This document shows, piece after piece, positions 54 to 54,173 of a stretch of DNA of 64,000 nt. A model generated the notes under the pieces. That model had not been told where the DNA came from. It searched no databases and saw only the letters and a program-made list of their open reading frames with translations. The translations under genes were made by a program, and so were the position numbers. How positions within the stretch are numbered: position 1 is the stretch's first letter; the number at the start of each line of letters is the position of its first letter. The stretch is from an uncultured archaeon. Lineage in GTDB: Archaea > Aenigmatarchaeota > Aenigmatarchaeia > QMZP01 > JAFGSV01. The stretch covers positions 3,985 to 67,984 of the forward strand of contig CAZLFZ010000001.1 in NCBI GenBank assembly GCA_964559215.1, in the 5' to 3' direction.

Positions 54-3032
54 ATGGAAAATGCATCACATCAACTGAAAGATTATCTGGTTTCTCTCTC
101 ATCAAAAGATGAAGCATACTTTTTAGGTGCTGTAACAGACGGTATCAAAATAAGATTTTTCACTTGCCAAAACAGCCAGGTGTTTGAAGAGCAACCTCAT
201 GAATTGAGGGGAGAAGATATAATCAGGCTGATGAGGAGTGCCATAGCATTGAATACAAAGACCCTGAGTGCCAAGAATTTGGTCTCGGAGTTCTGCGAAC
301 CGAAAACGGATAACTTGGCTAAAAATCTTATCAAAATTCTTTATAGAACCATAAAGAAATCTCCGACCCAAAAAACATACATGCTGAATGAGGAGTGGGA
401 GAGATTATTCAAATTGGGTCACGAAGACAAATCTCATCAGAAGAAGATAGAGGAGAGGGGGGTTGCATTGAGTAGGATTGTCGGTGAGAAAACCATGCCA
501 ATGTCGGAACAATACAAAGTCCTTTTCTGTGCTCAGACCGCATATGCCACAATAGTCAAGTTAATTGCATACAGGGTTATCTCGGACATTGTGTTCCATA
601 GTCCACTACAGAGTTTCAAATCCTTGTCGACAGCCGAAAGCAACAGCCTAAGAATATTTTTTTCCGAATTTGAAGAGGGTTCCACTTTCAGGGAGATAGG
701 AATAGACAACCTGCTGGAAGGAGACTTCTTTTCGTGGTATTGCACAAAAGAACAGTGGAATGAGGAAATTTACATGGTTTTGAAAGAAGTCATATCCCGA
801 CTCTCAGATTATGAAGACAAGCAAGACATATTCCACAAATCAACGGTAAACGACCTTTTCAGGGAACTTTATCAGCACATCATGCCTTCCGTAGTCCGCT
901 ACAGTCTGGGAGAATACTATACTCCGAAATGGCTCGCACAACATCTACTCGAAAACGCATCGAAAAACAAGGTCGGATGGAGAGGGTTAGACCCCTGTGC
1001 GGGCTCTGGAACCTTTCTGATAGCAATGATAGAGAAGGTGATTAATGAGAACAAGAACGCCCCAAGAGATAAGATTTTCAACGAAGTAATCCACAGAGTC
1101 AAGGGCATAGACTTGAATCCATTGGCTGTTTTGACATCCAGAGTTAACTATTTCATAGCAATCTCACCATATCTCCCGAAAGACATAAAATATATCGAAA
1201 TACCCGTGCATCTTGGTGATTCTGCGAACATACCAAGATTGGTAAATATCGCAGGTGTCGAGTGCATACAATACAAGATTGACACAAAAATAGACTCAAT
1301 GGAAATCACACTACCCCGAAGTTCTCTATCAGACCCGAAGAAATTTTCCGAAACAATGTTCAGGCTGGAGGCTTGTGTCTCACAGAAAAACAAAGACAAA
1401 GCCAAGGAACTAATCTGCGATTTGATAGCCAGTGAAGAAAGATCAACTGAAATAATACGGAGAATTGATATTTGGCTGGACTCTTTAATCAAGCTGGAGA
1501 TAAACAAATGGAACAGAATCTGGACGAGGATAGTAAAGAACTTCTTGACTACAGCAAATCTGGGTAAATTCGATGTCATAATTGGCAACCCACCGTGGAT
1601 AGATTGGAAAAACCTTCCAACGGGATACAGGGAGAAGATAAAATCTCTGTGCATAAAGAAAGAAATGTTTTCTGGAGACCACCTCACGGGTGGCATAAAC
1701 CTCAACATATGTGCCTTAATCACGAATGTCGTTGCAGAAAATTACTTGGATGATGACGGCACATTCGCATTCCTCATGCCAAAATCCATAATTTTCCAGC
1801 AGACTTATGAAGGCTTCAGGAACTTGAAAATTGAATATAGAGGTAACATGTATTTTCAGGAGTTCCACGATTGGACAAAATCTGGTCATCCATTTCACCC
1901 AGTTCAGCAACAATTTCTGACTTATTATATGTCGTTCAAGAAACCGAGAAGGGATTATGTTCCCGTCAGACGATACAGCAAGAACAGAGGGGAATCAATC
2001 AGAGGAAAGGAGAATAATGACTTGGAATCTGTAATCGGATTGTTTGACATCGAAGATTTTGTGTGCGGTCAGGTATCAGCATCAAACACGGCGTTCACCT
2101 ATGCCAAAACAAGGGAAGAACTTACAAAGTTCAGGGAAATATCAGGCATATGCACATACATCGGAAGGGAGGGTATTGAGTTTTACCCGCAAGAAATTAT
2201 GATATTATCACCTGATGCCGAGAAGGTAAGGTCTGGAGAAGGAATAATCTGGGTGAAGAATTTCCAGAATGAAAAATCCAAGTATAGAGTTCCCCAAAAA
2301 AGCGTGAGGATGGAGAAAAAGTATCTATACCCCCTTCTGAAAGGTGTTGATATAAAACGCTTCAGAATCGTTGACACAAACTATCTCGTCCCCTTTCCAT
2401 ATGAATCCAAGAACCCAAGAAAAGCATTGACTATCGAGGAGCTTGTAAGTAAATCCCCACTTTTATTGAAATATCTTGAATCATTCAAAGAGATTATTGA
2501 GAAACAGACCGAATATAATGAAAAGATAAAGGGGAAATATGGTGGCATCTACTATAGTCTCGCAAGGGTCGGAAAATACACCTTCGCTCCACACCATGTT
2601 GTTTTTAGGGACAACACGAAATGGTGTGCGGCTGTAGTGTCTTCAACCAATAACAAATGGGTAGGAAAAAAGCTATATCTGACACAGAATCACGCCGTTT
2701 CAATGTGTGAAGATGAAAAAGGAAATTTCATTGCGGAAGATGAGGCTCATTTCATATGTGCAATATTGAACTGTCCTATAGTAGAAAGATTTATACTTCA
2801 ATCATCCGACAGCAGGACTTTCAAGATACAACCGCCGATTTTTATCCCGAAATACAACATAAAAAATGTAAACCATGTTAAACTAAGGGACATTTCAATC
2901 AAGGCACACGAGAATCCAGATAATGTAGAAGAACTCAGAGAGGAAGCAGAAAAGATATACATGTCAATTTGTTCTTCGGGGAACCCAAACATAGAGGATA
3001 GCAACAAACAGGCAAATTTAAAACACTTCTGA
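54..3032 (+). CDS. Large N6-adenine DNA methyltransferase fusion protein; Type IIG/IIL (MmeI/Eco57I-like) restriction-modification candidate
   Basis: 992-aa ORF with gamma-class amino-MTase motif order: motif X 'GEYYTPKW', motif I 'LDPCAGSGTFL' (nt 990-1016) and motif IV 'IIGNPPWIDW' (NPPW at nt 1587-1598, in frame). A roughly 290-aa N-terminal domain and a roughly 470-aa C-terminal region consistent with a target-recognition domain, as in single-chain RM enzymes. The gene sits in a segment that is AT-rich relative to the rest of the window. Confidence 0.6.
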   Translation: MENASHQLKDYLVSLSSKDEAYFLGAVTDGIKIRFFTCQNSQVFEEQPHELRGEDIIRLMRSAIALNTKTLSAKNLVSEFCEPKTDNLAKNLIKILYRTIKKSPTQKTYMLNEEWERLFKLGHEDKSHQKKIEERGVALSRIVGEKTMPMSEQYKVLFCAQTAYATIVKLIAYRVISDIVFHSPLQSFKSLSTAESNSLRIFFSEFEEGSTFREIGIDNLLEGDFFSWYCTKEQWNEEIYMVLKEVISRLSDYEDKQDIFHKSTVNDLFRELYQHIMPSVVRYSLGEYYTPKWLAQHLLENASKNKVGWRGLDPCAGSGTFLIAMIEKVINENKNAPRDKIFNEVIHRVKGIDLNPLAVLTSRVNYFIAISPYLPKDIKYIEIPVHLGDSANIPRLVNIAGVECIQYKIDTKIDSMEITLPRSSLSDPKKFSETMFRLEACVSQKNKDKAKELICDLIASEERSTEIIRRIDIWLDSLIKLEINKWNRIWTRIVKNFLTTANLGKFDVIIGNPPWIDWKNLPTGYREKIKSLCIKKEMFSGDHLTGGINLNICALITNVVAENYLDDDGTFAFLMPKSIIFQQTYEGFRNLKIEYRGNMYFQEFHDWTKSGHPFHPVQQQFLTYYMSFKKPRRDYVPVRRYSKNRGESIRGKENNDLESVIGLFDIEDFVCGQVSASNTAFTYAKTREELTKFREISGICTYIGREGIEFYPQEIMILSPDAEKVRSGEGIIWVKNFQNEKSKYRVPQKSVRMEKKYLYPLLKGVDIKRFRIVDTNYLVPFPYESKNPRKALTIEELVSKSPLLLKYLESFKEIIEKQTEYNEKIKGKYGGIYYSLARVGKYTFAPHHVVFRDNTKWCAAVVSSTNNKWVGKKLYLTQNHAVSMCEDEKGNFIAEDEAHFICAILNCPIVERFILQSSDSRTFKIQPPIFIPKYNIKNVNHVKLRDISIKAHENPDNVEELREEAEKIYMSICSSGNPNIEDSNKQANLKHF

Positions 3033-48096: not shown

Positions 48097-49032
48097 TCAG
48101 ATTCTGCCGCTCAGTAACTCTCTTAGCCCTTCTTTCAGGCTGATAGTTGCTTTAAATCCCAACAACTCCTCAGCCAGCCTGGTGTCAGCCAGAGAATCCT
48201 TGATGTCCCCTTTCCTTTGCGGCTTGTAGACAACCTTGAGGCCTTTGCCTGATATCTTTTCCAGTATCCTTATCATTTCGTTGAGCGAAACCGACTTCCC
48301 TGTCCCGACATTTATCGCCTTTCCCACTGCTTTTTTCGATGTCGCCGCAAGCACGTTCGCCCTCACCACGTCCCTGACATCGACAAAGTCCCTTGTCTGC
48401 TTGCCGTCGCCGAACACCGTGACTTTCCTGCTATCTTTCATGTTCTTGGTGAAAATTGAAATCACGCCAGAATATGGGCTGTCAGAATTCTGCCTCGGGC
48501 CGTACACGTTGAAATATCGCAGGGAGACGGTTTCCAGGCCGTAGAGCTGGTTATAGAGCTTGACGTAGGATTCCCCTGCCATTTTCGACACCGCGTAAGG
48601 AGACACCGGATTCAGGCGCCGCTCTTCGGTTATGGAGATTCTTCCCGTGTCCCCGTAAATGGCCGAAGACGATGCGAAAACTATTCGGCTCACGTCATGC
48701 AGTCTGCAAGCCTCGAGAACGTTCAAGGTTCCCCCTATGTTTATATCGGAGTCCATTATCGGGTCTTCTATGGAGGCTTGGATTTGAACATTAGCCGCTT
48801 CGTGAAAGACTACATCCGTGCCTTTTAAGGATGCTGCTACAGTTTCTGCGTTTCTCACATCGCCCCTTATTACCCGTATTTTGTTCCTTATGTGTTGCAG
48901 GTTCTCTATCTTGCCTGCGGAGAGGTTATCAAGAACATTTACCTCATTTCCTTCTGCTAGTGTTTCCGCTAGCCAGGAGCCGATAAAGCCGGCCCCCCCT
49001 GTTACGACTATGTTCCTGTTAGCCAAAGTCAT
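48097..49032 (-). CDS. NAD-dependent epimerase/dehydratase (UDP-GlcNAc/UDP-Glc 4-epimerase-like)
   Basis: '[18 protein letters not shown]' and 'YAVSKMAGE' (YxxxK). Start moved to the ATG at 49032. Confidence 0.65.
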   Translation of the reverse strand: MTLANRNIVVTGGAGFIGSWLAETLAEGNEVNVLDNLSAGKIENLQHIRNKIRVIRGDVRNAETVAASLKGTDVVFHEAANVQIQASIEDPIMDSDINIGGTLNVLEACRLHDVSRIVFASSSAIYGDTGRISITEERRLNPVSPYAVSKMAGESYVKLYNQLYGLETVSLRYFNVYGPRQNSDSPYSGVISIFTKNMKDSRKVTVFGDGKQTRDFVDVRDVVRANVLAATSKKAVGKAINVGTGKSVSLNEMIRILEKISGKGLKVVYKPQRKGDIKDSLADTRLAEELLGFKATISLKEGLRELLSGRI

Positions 49033-49063
49033 AAATTTAATAACCATCCGGTAAAATAAATAA

Positions 49064-49411
49064 GTGAGGGTTATGCATTTCTCTATTGACGAATTCGAGC
49101 GTGTCGGCAGGGTTGTCAAAAAGACCGACGTTTACACCATTCTTGACGTCTCGCTCCTTGAAAACCTCGTTGTATCAATGACCATTCTGCATCATGGACA
49201 TGAAACCTCAGGCCATTCCCACAGCGAGGCAGACGAGGTGTATTTTTTCGTTGATGGCAACGGTAGAATGCAGCTTGATGAAGAAAAAATTGACGTCAAG
49301 GCCAAAGATATAGTTTTGATTCCAAGAGGCAAATTCCACAAGGTTTTCAACGAATCGAAGAATGATCTGGTCTTCGTGTGCGTTTTCGAAAAATACGGGG
49401 ACAGGGCCTAA
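49064..49411 (+). CDS. Cupin-domain protein (sugar isomerase/epimerase-like cupin_2)
   Basis: 'HHGHETSGHSHSEADEVYFFVDGNG' metal-binding His cluster in a two-motif cupin arrangement. 115 aa. Confidence 0.5.
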   Translation: MRVMHFSIDEFERVGRVVKKTDVYTILDVSLLENLVVSMTILHHGHETSGHSHSEADEVYFFVDGNGRMQLDEEKIDVKAKDIVLIPRGKFHKVFNESKNDLVFVCVFEKYGDRA

Positions 49412-50163
49412 TTTTTTTCCTTGTAGACCTCGTTGGCCTCTTTGTAGCTTTCCATGCTCCCTATGTCAAACCATTTGCTGTTCCCGTTGAAAACAAATCC
49501 CTGCACAGCCATCTGCTTGGCCAGCCATGAAATGAAAAATCCAGGAGCGTCTGCGTTGTTTTTCCCGTTCAGGTACTCGTAAATCATCTCGACTGCTTTT
49601 TTTGGAAAAAAGTAGCAGCCCGTGCTGATCAGGGTGGATGGCGGATGTTCCGGCTTTTCATGGAATTCTTTTATGATGTCTTTCTCGTCAAGAACGACAA
49701 CCCCGTATTTTTTCTTTATCTTTTCCTTGTCTTCAATGTCATACAGCGCAACCACCGGAAAACCGTTATCCTTCCCATCAATGAATTTTTTCATGTCAAA
49801 ATCAAACAGGTTGTCGCCGGCGACAACGATTATATCCTCGCTGATGCCTTTTTTTCTGAGCAAAAAGCCTAGAGCCCCTACGGCGCCCAGTTTGTCCTCT
49901 TCGCACGTTGTTGGCTCCGCCACGATCTCCAGTTCTTTTCCGAATTTTGCCCCAGCCAACCATTGCCTGAACTGGGGCTCAAATCGCTGATTTACCGATA
50001 TGTAAACCTTGTCGATTTCTTCTATATCGCCCAGCTTTTCCAGTATGTGCTCTATTATAGGCCTTCCAGCCACGGAAAGCAGTGGCTTGGGCCTGTCGTG
50101 TGTAAGAGGCCACAGCCTCCTTGCAAATCCACCTGCCAGTACTACTGCCTGCATTTTCACCAC
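49408..50163 (-). CDS. Sugar-1-phosphate nucleotidyltransferase (short-form NTP-transferase)
   Basis: 'MQAVVLAGGFARRLWPLTHDRPKPLL' G-x-G-x-R-L signature. 251 aa. Confidence 0.6.
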   Translation of the reverse strand: MVKMQAVVLAGGFARRLWPLTHDRPKPLLSVAGRPIIEHILEKLGDIEEIDKVYISVNQRFEPQFRQWLAGAKFGKELEIVAEPTTCEEDKLGAVGALGFLLRKKGISEDIIVVAGDNLFDFDMKKFIDGKDNGFPVVALYDIEDKEKIKKKYGVVVLDEKDIIKEFHEKPEHPPSTLISTGCYFFPKKAVEMIYEYLNGKNNADAPGFFISWLAKQMAVQGFVFNGNSKWFDIGSMESYKEANEVYKEKN

Positions 50164-50230
50164 TTTTCCTATTTATTAGTGACAAATTTAAATACCTTAA
50201 ATTGAATACAGATTTAAGTATTTAAAAGCT

Positions 50231-50246
50231 TGCTTTAAAATATTTA
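50231..50246 (+). promoter_or_regulatory. TATA-box-like element upstream of rpl10e
   Basis: 'tgctttaaaatattta' about 25 nt upstream of the ATG at 50271. Confidence 0.35.
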
Positions 50247-50270
50247 CTCTTATACCCAATGGTGATCGTT

Positions 50271-50786
50271 ATGGCGCTCAGACCGGCAAAATGCTACAGC
50301 AAACTGGAAAGGCCCAATACCAGGGTCTCGCGACACAAGCCAAGGAAGTCCTACGTAAAGGGTGTTCCTTCCCCCAAAATCAGGTCGTTTGAAATAGGCA
50401 CGCCTAAGCCCGAATTCAAGTCCAGGATTTGCCTTGTTGCCAAAAATGGCGCCCAAATCCGGCACAACGCCCTTGAAGCGGCCAGGGTCTCCACCAACAA
50501 GACGCTTGAAAGGGAGCTTGGGAAAGGGATGTACTTCTTCAAGGTTTTGGTTTACCCGCATCACATCCTCAGGGAAAATCCCATTGCAACAGGAGCGGGG
50601 GCCGACAGGTACCAGACCGGCATGAGGCTATCCTTCGGCAGACCCGTATCGACAGCCGCAAGGGTCAAACAGGGGCAACGCATCATTTTGGTCAGGGTGC
50701 CAGTCGGGAAGGAAGATGTGGCAAAACGGGCCCTCAAAATAGCCTCGTCAAAGCTGCCTGTCCCCTGCTCGATTCGGTTTAAATGA
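50271..50786 (+). CDS. rpl10e: 50S ribosomal protein L10e (uL16)
   Basis: 'MALRPAKCYSKLERPNTRVSRHKPRKSYVKGVP...ATGAGADRYQTGMRLSFGRP' is archaeal L10e. Confidence 0.8.
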   Translation: MALRPAKCYSKLERPNTRVSRHKPRKSYVKGVPSPKIRSFEIGTPKPEFKSRICLVAKNGAQIRHNALEAARVSTNKTLERELGKGMYFFKVLVYPHHILRENPIATGAGADRYQTGMRLSFGRPVSTAARVKQGQRIILVRVPVGKEDVAKRALKIASSKLPVPCSIRFK

Positions 50787-50851
50787 TCTTTGTTCGCTTG
50801 CATTTCTTAAAATTATAAATTTTAGCGGACAATAATCAACTGGGTGTTTTT

Positions 50852-53029
50852 TTGTACGTTGTAAAGCAGGAAGAGGCCAGCAGCCGGGAAGAGTTCGGCT
50901 ACAAGGCAGCGACCCTAGCGGATATGCAAAAGTCGGCCTTGCCCGTGCCCAAGGGGTTCGTAATATCCCCCAAAGCGCTGGAACTCTTTATTTCCAGGAA
51001 CGGTTTGGAGGACAAAATCCGGTCGGTAGCTGAGACTCCCGACAGGGGACTGTCCGGCTTGCAGGCAATCGAGCGTAACACCAGGGAGCTTTTTCTTAAC
51101 GCTTTCATACCGGATGAGATAAAAAAGGAGGTTCTGGCCGCCTACGAAAAACTTTCACTGTCGGATGAAGTCCGGCGCGCTGATACAGCCGCACTTGACC
51201 TTATAAAGGCCGGCCGGGACCACGAACGGGTGGCCGTGCGCTCTTCTGTGATAAGGGAGCCGGAAAACAGCTTTGCCGGTGTTACGAACACCTTTCTTAA
51301 CGTCAGCGGCGAGGACGAGTTGTGGAGATGCATAAAGCTCTGCTGGGCATCGCTGTTCTATCCCTATGCTCTGCTCTACAGCGAGAGAAGGGGCATATCC
51401 AGCTTGCCGCGGATGTCCGTACTAGTGCAAAGGATGGTAGAGGCTGAAAAAAGCGGTTCCATATTAACGAACTTCGGGAACGACAAAGTACTCGTGGAGG
51501 GGGCATGGGGCCTGGGAAATGCCGTGAGTTCTGGCATTGTCACGCCAGACGAGTACCTGCTGGACAAGAACGGTTCCCTGCTAGAGAAAAACATCAGCAA
51601 GAAATTGTGGATGTATGCCAGGGATCCCATGTCAGGGAAAACCGAAAAAGAGCATGTGCCGGGCTCCGAAATGGATGCACAGGTGCTCACGGACATTGAG
51701 CTGAAAAAGTTGTGCGAGCTGGCCGATAAAGTGCAAGGGTCTAAACCAGGACAGCATGTTGTGGACTGGTGTATATGGAGGAACAGGGCCTTTATACTTG
51801 ATGCCAAGCCGGGCAACTACGAAATCTCCATGGGGGAAGAGCAAGCCGGCGATGTACTGGTCACGGGCCGATGTGCATCTCAGGGGGCCGTAGCCGGCAA
51901 AATCGCCATTTTCCCCAGTGAAATAGAGGGTCGATTTGATGCTACTAACATAGTCGTGTCCGAAAGCCCTTCCATTTCAGTCCTTCTCTCTTTCCCTGAT
52001 ATCGCTGGTTATGTTACCAGTGATGGTGGAAGGCTGTGCAACTTTAGCATACTGGCCAGGGAACTGAAAATCCCGGCTTTGACCGCAACCCAGAATGCCA
52101 CATCAATCCTGCGTGAAGGGGATGGCGCTAAGGTGCTTGCGGAACAGGGAAAGGTCATCGCTGTTCCAGAAGAAGTCCCCGAAATCCAGGAAGGGGGCAT
52201 AAGCCCCGATTTCCCTCTTCCCATCGAGCCTATCGAAAAGGATGCCGCCATCCGTGAAAAACCGCTCAGCGGGACCAGGATATTCGCCAAGCTTTCTCCG
52301 GGGCGGATTGAAAAAATCGCTGGTGTGGATGGGTTCATCCTGTTAAATTCTGCCGGGGAGTCGGATCTTGTCCCACCTCCAGGCACTGATATTGAAAACA
52401 TGCAAGCCCTTTCGGATTCGCCAGTCTGGCTGCAATCCAAGGGCGAAAATGATTTTTCCATTTCCGTGGACATGGCTAAAAGACTGCATGATTCCGGATT
52501 TGCTGGCATTGGCGTGCTGATTCCGGTCACGAGGGGCGTTAATGACATTGAGAGGTGGAGATACCAGATACCGGCGAACGCGCGGCTCGGTGTTGAAATC
52601 AAAACACCGGCCATGGCCCTGGCAACCGGTTCCCTTCTAAAAGAGGGGATGAGCATGGTCAATCTCGAGCTCAAAAGCCTCGTCCAGCTTAGCATGGGCC
52701 TTGCCAGGCCTGACCAGGAGATACACCCTGCCGTTCTTGATTTGATAGCAAGCGTGACGGACAAGTGCAGGGAGATAGGAGCCAAGGTCTGCATAAGCGC
52801 GGAATCTGAGCATCTAACGCCTGAGAACATAGAGGCGATGATAAAGCGTGGCGTTGATGTTGTGTGCGTTGAGCCCGGCATGATCGATGATTTGAAGGAT
52901 GTCTTGTCAAGGGTGGAGAAAAAAATGCTGCTCGGCCACGGTGTCGTGAAAAAGGAACCTGAACCCCAGGACGACACCCAGCCAGCGCCAGAATCAGACG
53001 ATTTCAGTCACGCTTTTTCTTTGCCTTGA
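50852..53029 (+). CDS. PEP synthase (pyruvate, water dikinase)-like three-domain protein with Asn in place of the phospho-carrier His
   Basis: TTG-initiated 725-aa ORF. N-terminal PPDK-type nucleotide-binding domain ('ALPVPKGFVISP'). The mobile-domain box reads 'VTSDGGRLCNFSILARELKIPAL' against the canonical '[23 protein letters not shown]'. C-terminal PEP-utilizing barrel with 'GAKVCISAES'. Confidence 0.6.
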   Translation: MYVVKQEEASSREEFGYKAATLADMQKSALPVPKGFVISPKALELFISRNGLEDKIRSVAETPDRGLSGLQAIERNTRELFLNAFIPDEIKKEVLAAYEKLSLSDEVRRADTAALDLIKAGRDHERVAVRSSVIREPENSFAGVTNTFLNVSGEDELWRCIKLCWASLFYPYALLYSERRGISSLPRMSVLVQRMVEAEKSGSILTNFGNDKVLVEGAWGLGNAVSSGIVTPDEYLLDKNGSLLEKNISKKLWMYARDPMSGKTEKEHVPGSEMDAQVLTDIELKKLCELADKVQGSKPGQHVVDWCIWRNRAFILDAKPGNYEISMGEEQAGDVLVTGRCASQGAVAGKIAIFPSEIEGRFDATNIVVSESPSISVLLSFPDIAGYVTSDGGRLCNFSILARELKIPALTATQNATSILREGDGAKVLAEQGKVIAVPEEVPEIQEGGISPDFPLPIEPIEKDAAIREKPLSGTRIFAKLSPGRIEKIAGVDGFILLNSAGESDLVPPPGTDIENMQALSDSPVWLQSKGENDFSISVDMAKRLHDSGFAGIGVLIPVTRGVNDIERWRYQIPANARLGVEIKTPAMALATGSLLKEGMSMVNLELKSLVQLSMGLARPDQEIHPAVLDLIASVTDKCREIGAKVCISAESEHLTPENIEAMIKRGVDVVCVEPGMIDDLKDVLSRVEKKMLLGHGVVKKEPEPQDDTQPAPESDDFSHAFSLP

Positions 53030-54173
53030 GCCTTCGCTCGTGTTTTTCTACCGACTTCACGATATTGTCAGCTTCGGCCTTTGTGTTGCCTACTCCGGAT
53101 GTGTTGCCAACGCCCACTATTATGATCTTGTCGGACCTCTTGGTCCTGGATATGCTCCTTGAGATGGACTCCTTAACCTTGGGCAGGGAATCTATCATTT
53201 TCTTTCTCATGTGCTGTATGGCCTCCTCGGCCGACATCTTTACAACTATGCTGTCGATGGGTATGTTCTGACGAACCGCGGCGTCTTCTATGTAGCTTCT
53301 CTCCACGCCAGGGCCTCCCAAGGCCACGCCCACGCCCTCCGCTATGGAGCCGGTCTCTTCGCCTTCAAGCTTTGCAGCGGCGTCTATGCTTATTATCTTT
53401 GCTATCTTGTGCTTCTTCATCACATTTTCCACCGCCTTCCCAGGATATCCTACCCTGCCTCCGGGACCTCTCGCCCTCAGCAAAAACGCCTTTCTGCCGT
53501 CAATTGTCTTCTCTGCGAGTATTATGTCCTCCTCTATCTCGCGTGTTGGCTGGTCGCCTGCGAGTTTGGCTATTATCCATGGTCCTATGCCGTCCCCCAC
53601 GGGCTCCCCCCTTGCCAGGGACTTTGTCCCCTTGAAAAGGGCCTTGGCAATCCTCTCTATTAAAGGCAGCTGCATCTGGATAATCATGGCTATCTGGTAT
53701 GACTTTGTCTTCTTTATCATCTCCACATAGTGCCGGACTATCTTGGATATCATGTGCAACTCTATGCCGCCAGCCATGCCCATCTCTATGTTCGCCCTTC
53801 TCTCTTCGCCAAGATGCGGAGCAGCCTGGTCGACGAAATATTTGAACCGGGCCTTCTCGTTCTTTATCAGGTGGTCCATCTTACGCACGATTCCGTACGG
53901 GTCAAGGCTTACTGGCTCTATGATGAAAAACTCGAAAAACCTGTCCACACTGTCTTTTACTGTCTTTGTCGGCTTTTTGCTTATTTCACTGACAAGGAAT
54001 TTTCTGGACTGCGCAGACAACTGCTCCAGCCTCTTGGCGCTGCCCTCCAGACGCCACATTATCTGCGACAACATAATCCTGGGATAGAACATGAAAAAAA
54101 CCATGAAAAATATCAGCCACACTAGCCACGATACCAAGTCCCCTCCTTGACCTATGAACTGGTTCAGATACAT
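53004..54173 (-). CDS. Conserved archaeal hypothetical protein with N-terminal TM helix (DUF1512-like, tentative)
   Basis: 389 aa. N-terminal hydrophobic segment 'LVSWLVWLIFFMVFFMF'. Gly-rich 'GVGVALGGPGVERSYIEDAAV' and a basic C-terminus. Family name recalled from memory, not verified. Confidence 0.3.
   Translation of the reverse strand: MYLNQFIGQGGDLVSWLVWLIFFMVFFMFYPRIMLSQIMWRLEGSAKRLEQLSAQSRKFLVSEISKKPTKTVKDSVDRFFEFFIIEPVSLDPYGIVRKMDHLIKNEKARFKYFVDQAAPHLGEERRANIEMGMAGGIELHMISKIVRHYVEMIKKTKSYQIAMIIQMQLPLIERIAKALFKGTKSLARGEPVGDGIGPWIIAKLAGDQPTREIEEDIILAEKTIDGRKAFLLRARGPGGRVGYPGKAVENVMKKHKIAKIISIDAAAKLEGEETGSIAEGVGVALGGPGVERSYIEDAAVRQNIPIDSIVVKMSAEEAIQHMRKKMIDSLPKVKESISRSISRTKRSDKIIIVGVGNTSGVGNTKAEADNIVKSVEKHERRLKAKKKRD

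What the first reader, a model, noticed from the sequence alone, without database searches (positions are those of the whole stretch)
50852..53029. PEP-synthase-like enzyme with the phospho-carrier histidine replaced by asparagine
The central mobile-domain box, which in PEP synthase, PPDK and enzyme I reads '[17 protein letters not shown]' with the phosphorylated His, here reads 'GGRLCNFSILARELKIP' (Asn codon at nt 52040-52042). The rest of the three-domain architecture is retained. Without the His the ping-pong phosphotransfer cannot occur. So this is either a pseudo-enzyme or regulatory paralog, or it uses the neighbouring Cys, or it has a different activity. It sits directly downstream of rpl10e.
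Basis: seen in the sequence. Interest (0 to 1): 0.6.

Follow-up and report, generated by a model that had tools for sequence, protein, structure and literature searches.

The report
Histidine-less PEP synthase relic in Aenigmatarchaeota
This gene is the archaeal PEP synthase gene, kept at its usual place behind ribosomal protein L10e, but it has lost the phosphate-carrying histidine and every PEP/pyruvate-site residue. It has nevertheless been conserved across a group of tiny symbiotic archaea, so it cannot make PEP and probably survives as an ATP-binding "dead enzyme".

Summary
ORF 50852-53029 (+, 725 aa) is a PpsA homolog, and its phospho-carrier box reads GGRLCN with AAC (Asn) at 52040-52042. 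This Asn aligns with His442 of P. furiosus PpsA and His189 of enzyme I. It is not a sequencing error. Asn is invariant in every ortholog found (about 22 proteins, 39-96% identity, in 10 species-level Aenigmatarchaeota genomes), and dN/dS is 0.17-0.26.

- The Thr of the T-x-H triad is Leu.
- The swivel-to-barrel linker is disordered.
- The C-terminal barrel is about 80 residues shorter and has lost all PEP/pyruvate/Mg ligands and the catalytic Cys.
- The ATP-grasp Mg/gamma-phosphate ligands are remodelled (E to D, Q to D, R to K).

The nucleotide-anchoring Lys, Arg, Gln and Glu stay invariant.

The gene is the positional ortholog of ppsA. Canonical ppsA also follows rpl10e in Methanobacteriales and in many metagenomic archaea.

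Related Aenigmatarchaeota-type lineages carry N, S, Q, K, Y, I, P, D, L or R at the His site.

Best reading: a conserved, nucleotide-binding pseudo-dikinase with a conserved C-terminal docking peptide, (P)FDFSPSSFS. It should not be counted as "pps" in metabolic reconstructions. Its actual function is inferred, not shown.

The parts
50259..50786 (+). rpl10e (ribosomal protein uL16/L10e), the conserved upstream partner of ppsA in archaea
   Evidence: Pfam Ribosomal_L16 1e-29. The same gene lies upstream of the orthologs in L001-L010 and of canonical ppsA in L012-14 and L017. It is directly upstream in 13 of 80 metagenome loci.
50808..50821 (+). A/T-rich TATA-like box (TTAAAATTATAAAT) in the 65-bp spacer, followed by GGGTG at 50842-50846 just before the TTG start. 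This is a putative own promoter and ribosome-binding site.
   Evidence: Read directly from the sequence. Inferred, not tested.
50852..53029 (+). Coding sequence of the His-less PpsA homolog (725 aa, TTG start, stop at 53027-53029)
   Evidence: ORF list. Pfam PPDK_N 4e-57, PEP-utilizers 4e-11 and PEP-utilizers_C 3e-05. NCBIfam PpsA equivalogs score 267 and 254 bits, far below their cut-offs of 598 and 740. dN/dS is 0.26 against L020 and 0.17 for L007 against L009.
50852..51820 (+). N-terminal ATP-grasp (nucleotide-binding) domain, aa 1-323. Lys18 (50903-05), Arg130 (51239-41), Gln193 and Glu216 are kept. Asp305 (51764-66), Asp317 (51800-02) and Lys319 (51806-08) replace the canonical Glu, Gln and Arg.
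   Evidence: Pfam. Site tables. All of these positions are invariant in the clade. pLDDT is mostly above 90. This is the domain under the strongest constraint (dN/dS 0.16).
51155..51208 (+). Insertion of about 18 residues (SLSDEVRRADTAALDLIK), typical of the Aenigmatarchaeota-type PpsA radiation and shared with His-bearing relatives
   Evidence: Alignment. Present in L011, P0016 and P0017 (which have His) and in most His-less lineages. Absent from Methanobacterium PpsA. Low pLDDT of 55-59.
51854..52171 (+). Central 'swivel' (PEP-utilizers mobile) domain, aa 335-440, with no His anywhere in it
   Evidence: Pfam PF00391 4e-11. Folded with pLDDT 85-92. dN/dS 0.17.
52040..52042 (+). AAC codon for Asn397, in place of the phospho-carrier His. 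The Thr two residues before it (P. furiosus T440, the regulatory Thr of PPDK) is Leu395.
52172..52273 (+). Pro/Glu-rich disordered linker, aa 441-474, variable in length among orthologs
   Evidence: pLDDT 24-32. Length variation and insertions of up to about 60 aa in P0006, P0014 and P0015.
52274..52939 (+). Trimmed C-terminal barrel, aa 475-696. Eight predicted strands plus the terminal helix (RVEKKMLL). All PEP/pyruvate/Mg ligands and the catalytic Cys are lost.
   Evidence: AF2 secondary structure. Foldseek match to the PpsA C-terminal domain 8a8e_A with TM 0.60. Site table: LLRTEH, WYRTLD and NPMLGWRG are deleted or replaced, VETP becomes IKTP, GTND becomes ELKS, and ICGQ becomes ISAE.
52940..53026 (+). 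Disordered acidic/Pro-rich tail ending in the conserved terminal peptide (DDFSHAFSLP here; clade consensus (P)FDFSPSSFS)
   Evidence: pLDDT 32-36. The motif is conserved at the extreme C-terminus of all full-length orthologs. It was found on no other real ORF in the window or in L001-L010.
53004..54173 (-). Convergent DUF1512 gene that overlaps the 3' end by 26 bp. It is a conserved neighbour within Aenigmatarchaeota only.
   Evidence: Pfam DUF1512 and DUF1512_C. Synteny in L001-L010 but not in L012-L017.

Best explanation
The gene is the positional ortholog of archaeal ppsA. In one clade of Aenigmatarchaeota (DPANN) it has been converted into a pseudo-dikinase. The chemistry that defines PpsA cannot run, because the acceptor His, the adjacent Thr, and every residue that binds PEP, pyruvate or Mg in the barrel are gone. 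That chemistry is pyrophosphoryl transfer from ATP to the swivel His, followed by transfer of the phosphate from the His to pyruvate in the C-terminal barrel.

What is kept under purifying selection is the following:
- the three-domain fold;
- a remodelled but invariant acidic/basic trio at the Mg/gamma-phosphate position (Asp305, Asp317, Lys319);
- an invariant Asn at the tip of the swivel domain;
- the C-terminal oligomerisation-type helix;
- a terminal peptide, FDFSPSSFS, on a flexible acidic tether.

The most likely mode of action (inferred) is a nucleotide-binding, non-phosphotransferring protein. ATP or ADP binding closes the grasp domain and offers a docking surface to the inert swivel domain, with Asn serving as a His-shaped, non-reactive contact. 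The resulting conformational or oligomeric state is passed to a partner through the tethered C-terminal peptide. In short, it would be an energy-state sensor or scaffold rather than an enzyme of PEP metabolism.

Shown: the loss of catalytic residues, the conservation, the orthology by synteny, the predicted fold, and the retained nucleotide-anchoring residues. Inferred: ATP binding itself, the switch behaviour, and the existence of a partner.
For: The His-to-Asn change is aligned without gaps to PpsA and EI structures. Asn is invariant in all orthologs.

Selection is purifying. dN/dS is 0.26 overall (ATP-grasp 0.16, swivel 0.17, barrel 0.33) against L020, and 0.17 for L007 against L009 with 100 synonymous and 66 nonsynonymous changes.

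The catalytic-site table shows the clade as KRQE kept, GLGE Glu lost, DxEW changed to V/I-x-D-W, LQxRP changed to L-D-x-K-P, His changed to Asn, and all 11 barrel sites lost. By contrast, 75 of 80 metagenomic PpsAs carry the complete canonical site set (KRQEEDEQR / T-x-H / RERDN[RH]ENDRC, allowing conservative single-residue variants such as E to D or Q and N to D); two more keep His but have altered sites.

Across 107 homologs, the nucleotide anchors are kept equally well in His-less and His-bearing proteins (51/52 against 54/55, 51/52 against 54/55, 52/52 against 55/55). The transfer residues that face the His are lost together with the His (7/52 against 49/55, 20/52 against 52/55, 15/52 against 51/55, 12/52 against 49/55).

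The AF2 model has pLDDT 80 and all three domains are folded, including an eight-stranded barrel and a terminal helix. The linker and the tail are disordered. Foldseek's top hits are PpsA 2ols (1.6e-36), PPDK, RPH and the PpsA C-domain 8a8e.

Synteny with rpl10e is shared with canonical ppsA.

In RPH, nucleotide binding creates the docking surface for the swivel domain, and Lys22 and Arg117 position the phosphates (PMC4844700).

The C-terminal peptide is conserved and specific to this protein.
Against: - No biochemical data exist. ATP binding is inferred from conserved residues only.
- The invariant Asp305/Asp317/Lys319 trio could equally indicate a still-active ATP-grasp site with a new acceptor.
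- No partner for the C-terminal peptide was identified. The gene neighbourhood is collinear over 30 kb in all relatives, so it gives no specific functional clue.
- The protein evolves faster than its neighbours. It shows 39-66% identity across L001-L010, against 56-84% for the NTP-transferase, rpl10e, DUF1512 and SecD. Part of the molecule may simply be relaxing.
- The counts are not phylogenetically independent.
Confidence: 0.55

Rival explanations
1. The ATP-grasp domain is still catalytic and has acquired a His-independent activity. This could be direct phosphorylation, pyrophosphorylation or adenylylation of a small molecule or protein, or an ATP-grasp ligase reaction. The dead swivel and barrel domains would then serve as substrate-binding or structural modules.
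For: - Asp305, Asp317 and Lys319 are invariant in the clade rather than drifting. Two acidic residues plus a basic one is a normal ATP-grasp Mg/phosphate arrangement (general knowledge of ATP-grasp enzymes).
- The segment aa 228-279 (GIVTPDEYLLDK..KNISKKLWMY.R...G.TEK.HVPGS.MD.QVL) is much more conserved in the clade than in canonical PpsA, which suggests a new functional surface.
- The ATP-grasp domain has the lowest dN/dS, 0.16.
- Relatives of this superfamily have repeatedly acquired new acceptors: RPH, PigC/RedH, HpeHI, MarK and VadK.
Against: - Every characterised PPDK_N-type enzyme uses the swivel His as the nucleophile. No His-independent chemistry is known for this domain.
- In other His-less lineages the same three positions are variable (Gln site D/G/S/K, Arg site K/S/E/A/Q), as expected for a site that no longer performs catalysis.
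- No candidate substrate pathway is encoded next to the gene.
Confidence: 0.22
2. The gene is a decaying remnant: a PpsA on its way to loss in a reduced DPANN genome, with no remaining function.
For: - All dikinase-specific residues are gone.
- The barrel has few invariant positions, 15 of 222.
- The linker is low-complexity and variable in length.
- The gene is the fastest-evolving one in its neighbourhood.
- DPANN genomes are known for metabolic reduction (PMC8407114).
Against: - Intact full-length ORFs occur in at least 10 species-level genomes spanning 39-96% identity, with no frameshifts or stops.
- dN/dS is 0.17-0.26.
- 109 positions are invariant, among them Asn397 and the nucleotide anchors.
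- The C-terminal peptide is conserved.
- A 2.2-kb dead gene would not persist in a streamlined genome over this depth of divergence.
Confidence: 0.05
3. It is still a phosphotransfer enzyme that uses another residue as carrier (the neighbouring Cys396 or a residue elsewhere), or it works with a His domain supplied in trans by another protein.
For: - Cys396 is adjacent to Asn397 in the window protein.
- Split two-component dikinases exist, such as HpeHI and phenylphosphate synthase (general knowledge).
Against: - Cys396 is Ser in P0009, P0012, P0051, L008 and L010.
- The swivel domain contains no His.
- The Thr of the triad is Leu or Met.
- The acceptor site in the barrel is destroyed, so a carrier would have nowhere to deliver the phosphate.
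- No other PEP-utilizers domain is encoded in the window.
Confidence: 0.04
4. The Asn is a sequencing or assembly error in an otherwise normal ppsA.
For: A single base separates AAC from CAC.
Against: - The same Asn occurs in all orthologs from independent samples and assemblies, including a 97%-identical strain.
- It is accompanied by dozens of other clade-specific changes and an 80-residue shortening of the barrel.
Confidence: 0.005

Closest known systems
Archaeal phosphoenolpyruvate synthase PpsA (pyruvate, water dikinase, EC 2.7.9.2; TIGR01418 / NF005057; structures 8a8e P. furiosus, 9dae S. marinus, 2ols N. meningitidis)
   Same: - Clear homology over the whole length (phmmer 7e-54 to 8a8e; Foldseek 1.6e-36 to 2ols).
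- The same order of ATP-grasp, swivel and barrel domains.
- The same position downstream of rpl10e as in Methanobacteriales and many other archaea.
- The C-terminal helix motif RVEKKMLL resembles the oligomerisation helix.
   Different: - His is replaced by Asn and the triad Thr by Leu.
- All PEP/pyruvate/Mg ligands and the catalytic Cys are lost.
- The barrel is about 80 residues shorter.
- The inter-domain linker is disordered.
- The ATP-grasp Mg/gamma-phosphate residues are changed.
- There is an extra acidic tail with a terminal peptide.
- Scores are less than half of the NCBIfam equivalog cut-offs.
His-bearing Aenigmatarchaeota-type PpsA with the N-domain insertion (L011 ORF 986-3292, P0016, P0017, P0058, P0063)
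   Same: - They share the LS(V/L)(S/G)xE..(GG)xALDLIKAGR insertion.
- They are the nearest relatives outside the clade (30-35% identity).
- The named members come from the same phylum.
   Different: - They keep His and a full-length barrel (L011: GGATCH, GSNDLCQ, ICGE).
- L011 and P0016 are not next to rpl10e.
Other His-less members of the same radiation (e.g. P0054 Tyr, P0055/56/64/73/77 Asn, P0060/87/100 Ser, P0061 Gln, P0062 Ile, P0059/121/175 Lys)
   Same: - They have lost the carrier His while keeping the nucleotide anchors Lys, Arg, Gln and Glu.
- Many also have degenerate barrel sites.
- All those that carry a source name are Candidatus Aenigmatarchaeota.
   Different: - They are separated from the query clade by a large score gap (687 down to 484 bits).
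- Most keep a longer barrel, end in the canonical ERKLLLE helix, and lack the FDFSPSSFS tail.
- Different residues sit at the His site.
VadK / Rv1127c of Mycobacterium tuberculosis (a PPDK-derived regulatory kinase)
   Same: It is a member of the dikinase superfamily that has left central carbon metabolism for a regulatory, protein-interaction role (PMC13400623).
   Different: VadK keeps the catalytic His422, autophosphorylates, and has lost the whole C-terminal domain. The window protein keeps a barrel remnant but has lost the His. The two are opposite routes of degeneration.
Rifampin phosphotransferase, prodigiosin ligases PigC/RedH/HapC, HpeHI, MarK (neo-functionalised ATP-grasp + swivel-His enzymes)
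   Same: They share a homologous ATP-grasp domain (NCBIfam partial hits 146-170 bits; Foldseek 5hv1 1.6e-25, 9goj 1e-23) and equivalents of Lys22 and Arg117.
   Different: - All depend on the swivel His.
- The domain order differs (in RPH and PigC the swivel domain is at the C-terminus).
- They have a different substrate domain.

Membership tests
PEP synthase PpsA (EC 2.7.9.2) | Phospho-carrier His in the swivel-domain box GG(x)T(C/S)H | tested here: not met
   Asn397 aligns with the His of 8a8e and with EI His189. There is no His in aa 335-440. Asn is invariant in the clade.
PEP synthase PpsA (EC 2.7.9.2) | PEP/pyruvate-binding barrel with the conserved Arg, Arg, Glu (Mg), Asn-Asp (Mg) and proton-donor Cys | tested here: not met
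   All 11 tracked barrel positions are replaced or deleted. Pfam PEP-utilizers_C covers only the second half, at 23.6 bits against a cut-off of 22.8.
PEP synthase PpsA (EC 2.7.9.2) | Score above the curated equivalog thresholds (NF005057 598 bits; TIGR01418 739.75 bits) | tested here: not met
   266.7 and 253.7 bits.
PEP synthase PpsA (EC 2.7.9.2) | ATP-grasp domain with the phosphate-positioning Lys and Arg and the adenine-region Gln and Glu | tested here: met
   Lys18, Arg130, Gln193 and Glu216 are invariant. PPDK_N 4e-57.
PEP synthase PpsA (EC 2.7.9.2) | ATP-grasp Mg/gamma-phosphate residues D-x-E-W and L-Q-x-R-P | tested here: not met
   These read V-V-D-W and L-D-A-K-P. The changes are invariant in the clade.
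PEP synthase PpsA (EC 2.7.9.2) | Pyruvate + ATP + H2O -> PEP + AMP + Pi activity | not testable with these tools
   This needs an enzyme assay. From the residues, activity is predicted to be absent.
PEP-utilising enzyme / dikinase superfamily (common descent) | Significant sequence and fold similarity across the ATP-grasp, swivel and barrel domains | tested here: met
   phmmer 7e-54. Foldseek 1.6e-36 to 2ols, with the C-domain matching 8a8e_A at TM 0.60. AF2 predicts three folded domains.
Positional ortholog of archaeal ppsA | Location immediately downstream of rpl10e on the same strand | tested here: met
   The window and L001-L010 show this arrangement. Canonical ppsA in L012-14 and L017 shows the same arrangement, as do 13 directly adjacent cases among 80 metagenome loci.
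Pseudoenzyme (conserved, catalytically disabled homolog of an enzyme) | Loss of residues essential for the ancestral reaction | tested here: met
Pseudoenzyme (conserved, catalytically disabled homolog of an enzyme) | Maintenance by purifying selection across species | tested here: met
   dN/dS is 0.26 and 0.17. ORFs are intact in 10 species-level genomes. There are 109 invariant columns.
Pseudoenzyme (conserved, catalytically disabled homolog of an enzyme) | Absence of any catalytic activity | not testable with these tools
   A new ATP-grasp activity cannot be excluded from sequence alone.
Rifampin phosphotransferase / PigC-type kinases | ATP-grasp, then a substrate domain, then a C-terminal swivel His domain, with an equivalog-level score | tested here: not met
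   Only the ATP-grasp part matches (NF041857 145.7 against 999; PigC 169.6 against 1300). The domain order differs and there is no His.

The most novel reading that the evidence does not exclude
The remodelled ATP-grasp site (invariant Asp305/Asp317/Lys319 plus the clade-specific conserved segment aa 228-279) catalyses a His-independent reaction on a new acceptor. This would be the first PPDK_N-type domain to work without the swivel histidine. Alternatively or in addition, the protein is a nucleotide-gated adaptor whose tethered C-terminal FDFSPSSFS peptide docks onto a cellular machine, linking energy state to that machine in a host-dependent DPANN archaeon. One possibility is the translation apparatus, given the ancient rpl10e linkage and the acidic-linker-plus-aromatic-tail design.
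Probability: 0.2. Interest if true: 0.8.

Novelty: new variant of a known kind. Interest (0 to 1): 0.6.

Why it matters
1. Metabolic reconstructions of Aenigmatarchaeota and other DPANN count 'pps' (K01007) as present, and even invoke it as a substitute for the missing pyruvate kinase (PMC8407114). JGI names these very proteins 'pyruvate, water dikinase'. For this clade that inference is wrong. The PEP-pyruvate step is not covered by this gene, which changes the predicted carbon and energy budget and the dependence on a host.

2. It documents a natural, deeply conserved pseudo-dikinase. The literature searches found no description of a His-less PpsA or PPDK.

3. The wider radiation carries ten different residues at the His site. 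The nucleotide anchors are retained while the transfer residues are lost along with the His. This offers a natural experiment on how a three-domain swivelling enzyme is dismantled and repurposed.

4. The conserved C-terminal peptide gives a direct experimental handle (pull-down) for finding the new function.

Tried and rejected
- **Sequencing error or a nearby His.** Rejected.
- **Neighbouring Cys as carrier.** Rejected, because the position varies between Cys and Ser.
- **A second, canonical PpsA in the window.** tblastn with Methanobacterium PpsA finds only this gene. The rest of the genome could not be searched.
- **RNA elements.** No Rfam gathering-level hits anywhere in the window.
- **Functional clue from the neighbourhood.** The flanks encode sugar-nucleotide and glycan biosynthesis, NAD synthesis, DUF1512 and SecDF. 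The whole 30 kb is collinear in all relatives, so adjacency says nothing specific about this gene.
- **The C-terminal peptide as a signal shared by several proteins.** It was not found on any other real ORF in the window or in L001-L010.
- **Mimicry of the ribosomal-stalk tail.** No stalk protein was available in the held loci for comparison. This is left as an untested lead.
- **Genome scan with the mixed alignment A1.** It failed because no stretch was conserved enough. It was repeated with the clade-only alignment A2.
- **The metagenome scan meant to capture more His-less lineages.** It returned mostly canonical PpsAs. That was useful as a background, but it did not give contexts for the other His-less lineages.
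- **The afdb50 fold library.** Unavailable.
- **Contexts for P0050 onwards.** They could not be fetched because look-ups are restricted to other protein sets.
- **The long antisense ORF 52009-52977 (-).** It is 'conserved' in tblastn only because the sense strand is conserved. It was not treated as a gene.
Full report
**Observation**

The window encodes a 725-aa protein at 50852-53029 (+), starting with TTG. Bases 52040-52042 are AAC, and the surrounding peptide is GGRLCNFSILARELKIP.

Pfam finds PPDK_N (aa 14-323, 4e-57) and the PEP-utilizers mobile domain (aa 364-432, 4e-11). The match to PEP-utilizers_C is only marginal and partial (aa 569-688, profile 167-291 of 293, 23.6 bits against a cut-off of 22.8). 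NCBIfam's PpsA equivalogs score 267 and 254 bits against cut-offs of 598 and 740.

phmmer against PDB aligns the box without gaps to GGRtsH of P. furiosus PpsA (8a8e). It also aligns to enzyme I, query 366-428 against EI 158-220, which places Asn397 on His189. The swivel domain contains no histidine at all, so no alternative register rescues a His.

**Not an error, not a pseudogene**

A database search found a tight family of 39-96% identity (P0001-P0015). A profile search of 1.84 billion representatives added P0050-53, P0076 and P0149. The score then drops from 687 to 484 bits before the next relatives. Every member carries Asn at this position, in the forms GGRLCN, GGRMSN, GGRLSN or GSRLCN.

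In the GTDB species-representative genomes, ten loci (L001-L010) encode the protein with Asn. All are labelled Aenigmatarchaeota or uncultured archaeon.

A 97%-identical strain (L020) has the same AAC. Against that strain dN/dS is 0.26 overall, with 0.16 for the ATP-grasp domain, 0.17 for the swivel domain and 0.33 for the barrel. A second pair, L007 against L009 at 92% amino-acid identity, gives 0.17 from 100 synonymous and 66 nonsynonymous changes. The clade alignment has 109 invariant columns, among them Asn397.

**The damage is much wider than the His**

I compared columns that are at least 90% conserved in 21 canonical PpsAs with the clade and tabulated named catalytic positions.

In the swivel box, the Thr of T-(S/C)-H becomes Leu or Met and the His becomes Asn. 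This Thr is T440 of P. furiosus, which a preprint proposes as a phospho-site. From general knowledge, it is also the regulatory Thr of PPDK.

In the barrel:
- The segments carrying LLRTEH, WYRTLD and NPMLGWRG are deleted or replaced.
- VETPAA becomes I(K/R)TPAM, which removes the Mg-binding Glu.
- GTNDLTQ becomes ELKSLVQ, which removes the Asn-Asp pair.
- ICGQ becomes IS/T, which removes the Cys.

AlphaFold2 (pLDDT 80.4) still predicts eight strands and a terminal helix for aa 475-696. Foldseek matches this part to the PpsA C-terminal domain 8a8e_A with TM 0.60. The barrel is therefore trimmed by about 80 residues and emptied, not removed. The swivel-to-barrel linker (aa 441-474) is Pro/Glu-rich, variable in length and predicted to be disordered. 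That is hard to reconcile with a precisely guided swivel.

In the ATP-grasp domain, the residues that anchor the nucleotide are invariant:
- Lys18 and Arg130, which correspond to RPH Lys22 and Arg117. Those residues position the phosphates (PMC4844700).
- Gln193 and Met195 of the VQxM motif.
- Glu216.

The residues facing the beta/gamma-phosphate and the incoming His are changed in a fixed way. D-x-E-W becomes V/I-x-D-W, L-Q-x-R-P becomes L-D-x-K-P, and GLGE becomes GLG(N/S/K).

As a background, 75 of 80 metagenomic PpsA loci carry the complete canonical site set (KRQEEDEQR / T-x-H / RERDN[RH]ENDRC, allowing conservative single-residue variants such as E to D or Q and N to D). Two more loci (L023, L025) keep His but have altered sites, and only three lack His.

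**Orthology**

The arrangement NTP-transferase(-) / rpl10e(+) / this gene(+) / DUF1512(-) / 191-aa ORF(+) / SecD-SecF(-) is collinear in L001-L010.

Canonical, His-bearing ppsA also lies directly downstream of rpl10e in Methanobacteriales (L012, L013, L014, L017). rpl10e is within 6 kb in 26 of 80 metagenomic PpsA loci and is directly upstream on the same strand in 13. The window gene is therefore the positional ortholog of ppsA, not an extra paralog.

The 65-bp spacer contains a TATA-like TTAAAATTATAAAT and a GGGTG just before the start codon, which is compatible with independent expression. No other PpsA homolog is present in the 64 kb. The rest of the genome could not be examined.

**A wider radiation**

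The clade shares an insertion of about 18 residues in the ATP-grasp domain (LSLSDEVR..A..LIKAGR). The same insertion occurs in His-bearing relatives: the L011 ORF, a fully canonical PpsA in an Aenigmatarchaeota MAG, and P0016 and P0017.

Among the 150 best representatives, many insertion-bearing proteins lack the His and carry N, S, Q, K, Y, I, P, D, L or R instead. All of those that have a source name are Candidatus Aenigmatarchaeota.

A rough neighbour-joining tree places the query clade as one all-Asn group. Elsewhere it interleaves His-bearing and His-less sequences, which suggests several losses (low resolution).

Across 107 homologs, the nucleotide anchors are kept equally well in His-less and His-bearing proteins, while the transfer residues are lost together with the His (the counts are not phylogenetically independent):

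| Position | His-less, kept | His-bearing, kept |
|---|---|---|
| Lys (GGK) | 51/52 | 54/55 |
| Arg (AVRSS) | 51/52 | 54/55 |
| Gln (VQxM) | 52/52 | 55/55 |
| Asp of DxEW | 7/52 | 49/55 |
| Gln of LQxRP | 20/52 | 52/55 |
| Arg of LQxRP | 15/52 | 51/55 |
| Glu of GLGE | 12/52 | 49/55 |

This is the pattern expected if nucleotide binding is retained and the phosphoryl-transfer machinery has been abandoned.

**The C-terminal tail**

After the terminal helix (RVEKKMLL, which resembles the oligomerisation helix of the archaeal 24-mer) comes a disordered acidic/Pro-rich stretch of about 25 residues. It ends in a conserved peptide, DDFSHAFSLP here and (P)FDFSPSSFS in the clade consensus. No other real ORF in the window or in L001-L010 ends this way.

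Many long His-bearing relatives end in an analogous acidic linker followed by (V/I)LDIF. A tethered aromatic C-terminal peptide is therefore an older trait of this branch of the family. Its partner is unknown.

**Interpretation**

The protein cannot be a PEP synthase. The most economical reading is a conserved pseudo-dikinase that still binds adenine nucleotide.

I propose (inferred) the following. Nucleotide-dependent closure of the grasp domain and docking of the inert swivel domain switch the protein's conformation or assembly. In RPH, nucleotide binding creates the swivel-docking surface, and Asn is a His-shaped, unreactive contact. The tethered C-terminal peptide then passes that state to a partner.

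The main rival is that the invariant Asp/Asp/Lys trio and the unusually conserved segment aa 228-279 mark a new, His-independent ATP-grasp activity. No precedent for that exists among characterised relatives, all of which use the His: RPH, PigC/HapC, HpeHI, MarK and VadK. Decay, a Cys carrier and sequencing error are each contradicted by the data above.

**Comparison with the literature**

Literature searches found no description of a His-less PpsA or PPDK, or of a dikinase pseudoenzyme.

The nearest conceptual precedent is M. tuberculosis VadK, a PPDK derivative that left central metabolism. It keeps the His and lost the barrel, which is the opposite route.

NCBI's pipeline already declines to call these proteins PpsA and names them 'PEP/pyruvate-binding domain-containing protein' or 'hypothetical'. 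JGI labels them 'pyruvate, water dikinase'. A published Aenigmarchaeota reconstruction counts pps as a functional stand-in for pyruvate kinase (PMC8407114).

**Verdict**

The gene is a new, degenerate variant of a known enzyme family, namely a pseudo-PpsA. It is of moderate to high interest for DPANN metabolism and for pseudoenzyme evolution. Its positive function remains to be determined experimentally.

Noticed in passing
window 50259-53029; L012, L013, L014, L017; 13 of the loci L022-L101 (e.g. L026, L041, L042, L045, L064, L074): The rpl10e (uL16) to ppsA gene pair, same strand and directly adjacent, recurs in Methanobacteriales and in many metagenomic archaeal contigs with canonical PpsA. 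rpl10e lies within 6 kb in 26 of 80 loci. This looks like an ancient linkage between a ribosomal-protein gene and a gluconeogenic enzyme gene, and I cannot explain it.
   Followed up: partly
L055, L059, L069, L070, L081, L082, L084, L090, L098, L099 (C-termini of the PpsA ORFs); also P0084, P0096, P0109, P0156, P0161, P0169: Many long (860-980 aa), fully canonical His-bearing PpsA homologs end in an acidic linker followed by a near-identical terminal peptide (V/I)LDIF-COOH. This is probably a short docking motif with an unknown partner. The window clade has FDFSPSSFS in the same place.
   Followed up: partly
proteins P0079, P0086, P0089, P0090, P0092, P0098, P0102, P0103, P0123, P0125, P0127, P0178: These are giant proteins (1000-2650 aa) that combine PPDK_N-type ATP-grasp modules with two or three tandem swivel domains, each with its own GGxTCH box, often ending in ...VEVDADNGVV(R/K)I(I/L)K. 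This is an unusual multi-carrier dikinase architecture. Their source organisms were not determined.
   Followed up: no
proteins P0054-P0175; loci L032, L048, L049: Outside the query clade there is a broad set of PpsA homologs with the same N-domain insertion. In these the carrier His is S, Q, K, Y, I, P, D, L, R, F or N, and the barrel sites are degraded to varying degrees. All members with a source name are Candidatus Aenigmatarchaeota. This suggests repeated degeneration of PpsA in this phylum.
   Followed up: partly
L020 1-1040 versus window 49000-50852: In the 97%-identical strain (Logan SRR9706179), similarity to the window stops at about window position 50783, the very end of rpl10e. A different 291-aa gene on the minus strand lies upstream. 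This is either a strain-level rearrangement at the rpl10e/ppsA-like junction or an assembly chimera.
   Followed up: no
window 53004-53029: The 3' end of the PpsA-like gene overlaps the 3' end of the convergent DUF1512 gene (53004-54173, minus strand) by 26 bp. The same arrangement is called in L020.
   Followed up: no
window 1-45000: Most of the window upstream is a large surface-glycan or polysaccharide biosynthesis island. It encodes several GT1/GT2/GT4 glycosyltransferases, a PMT-type mannosyltransferase, a flippase, a DegT aminotransferase, two UDP-glucose dehydrogenase-like genes, epimerases and a sulfatase. It also encodes three radical-SAM enzymes, two of them with a B12-binding domain and one with a SPASM domain. 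An Eco57I-like N6 DNA methylase lies at 54-3032. This is a notable investment for a small DPANN genome.
   Followed up: partly
window 52009-52977 (-), 51376-51816 (-): Long antisense ORFs (322 and 146 aa) inside the gene give tblastn matches in all related loci. This mirrors the conservation of the sense strand and is not evidence for antisense genes.
   Followed up: partly
bioRxiv 10.1101/2022.08.11.503304 versus window aa 395-397: A preprint on P. furiosus PPSA argues that Thr440, not His442, is the phosphorylated residue. In the window clade both positions are replaced (Leu/Met and Asn). The conclusion that no carrier exists therefore holds under either view.
   Followed up: yes
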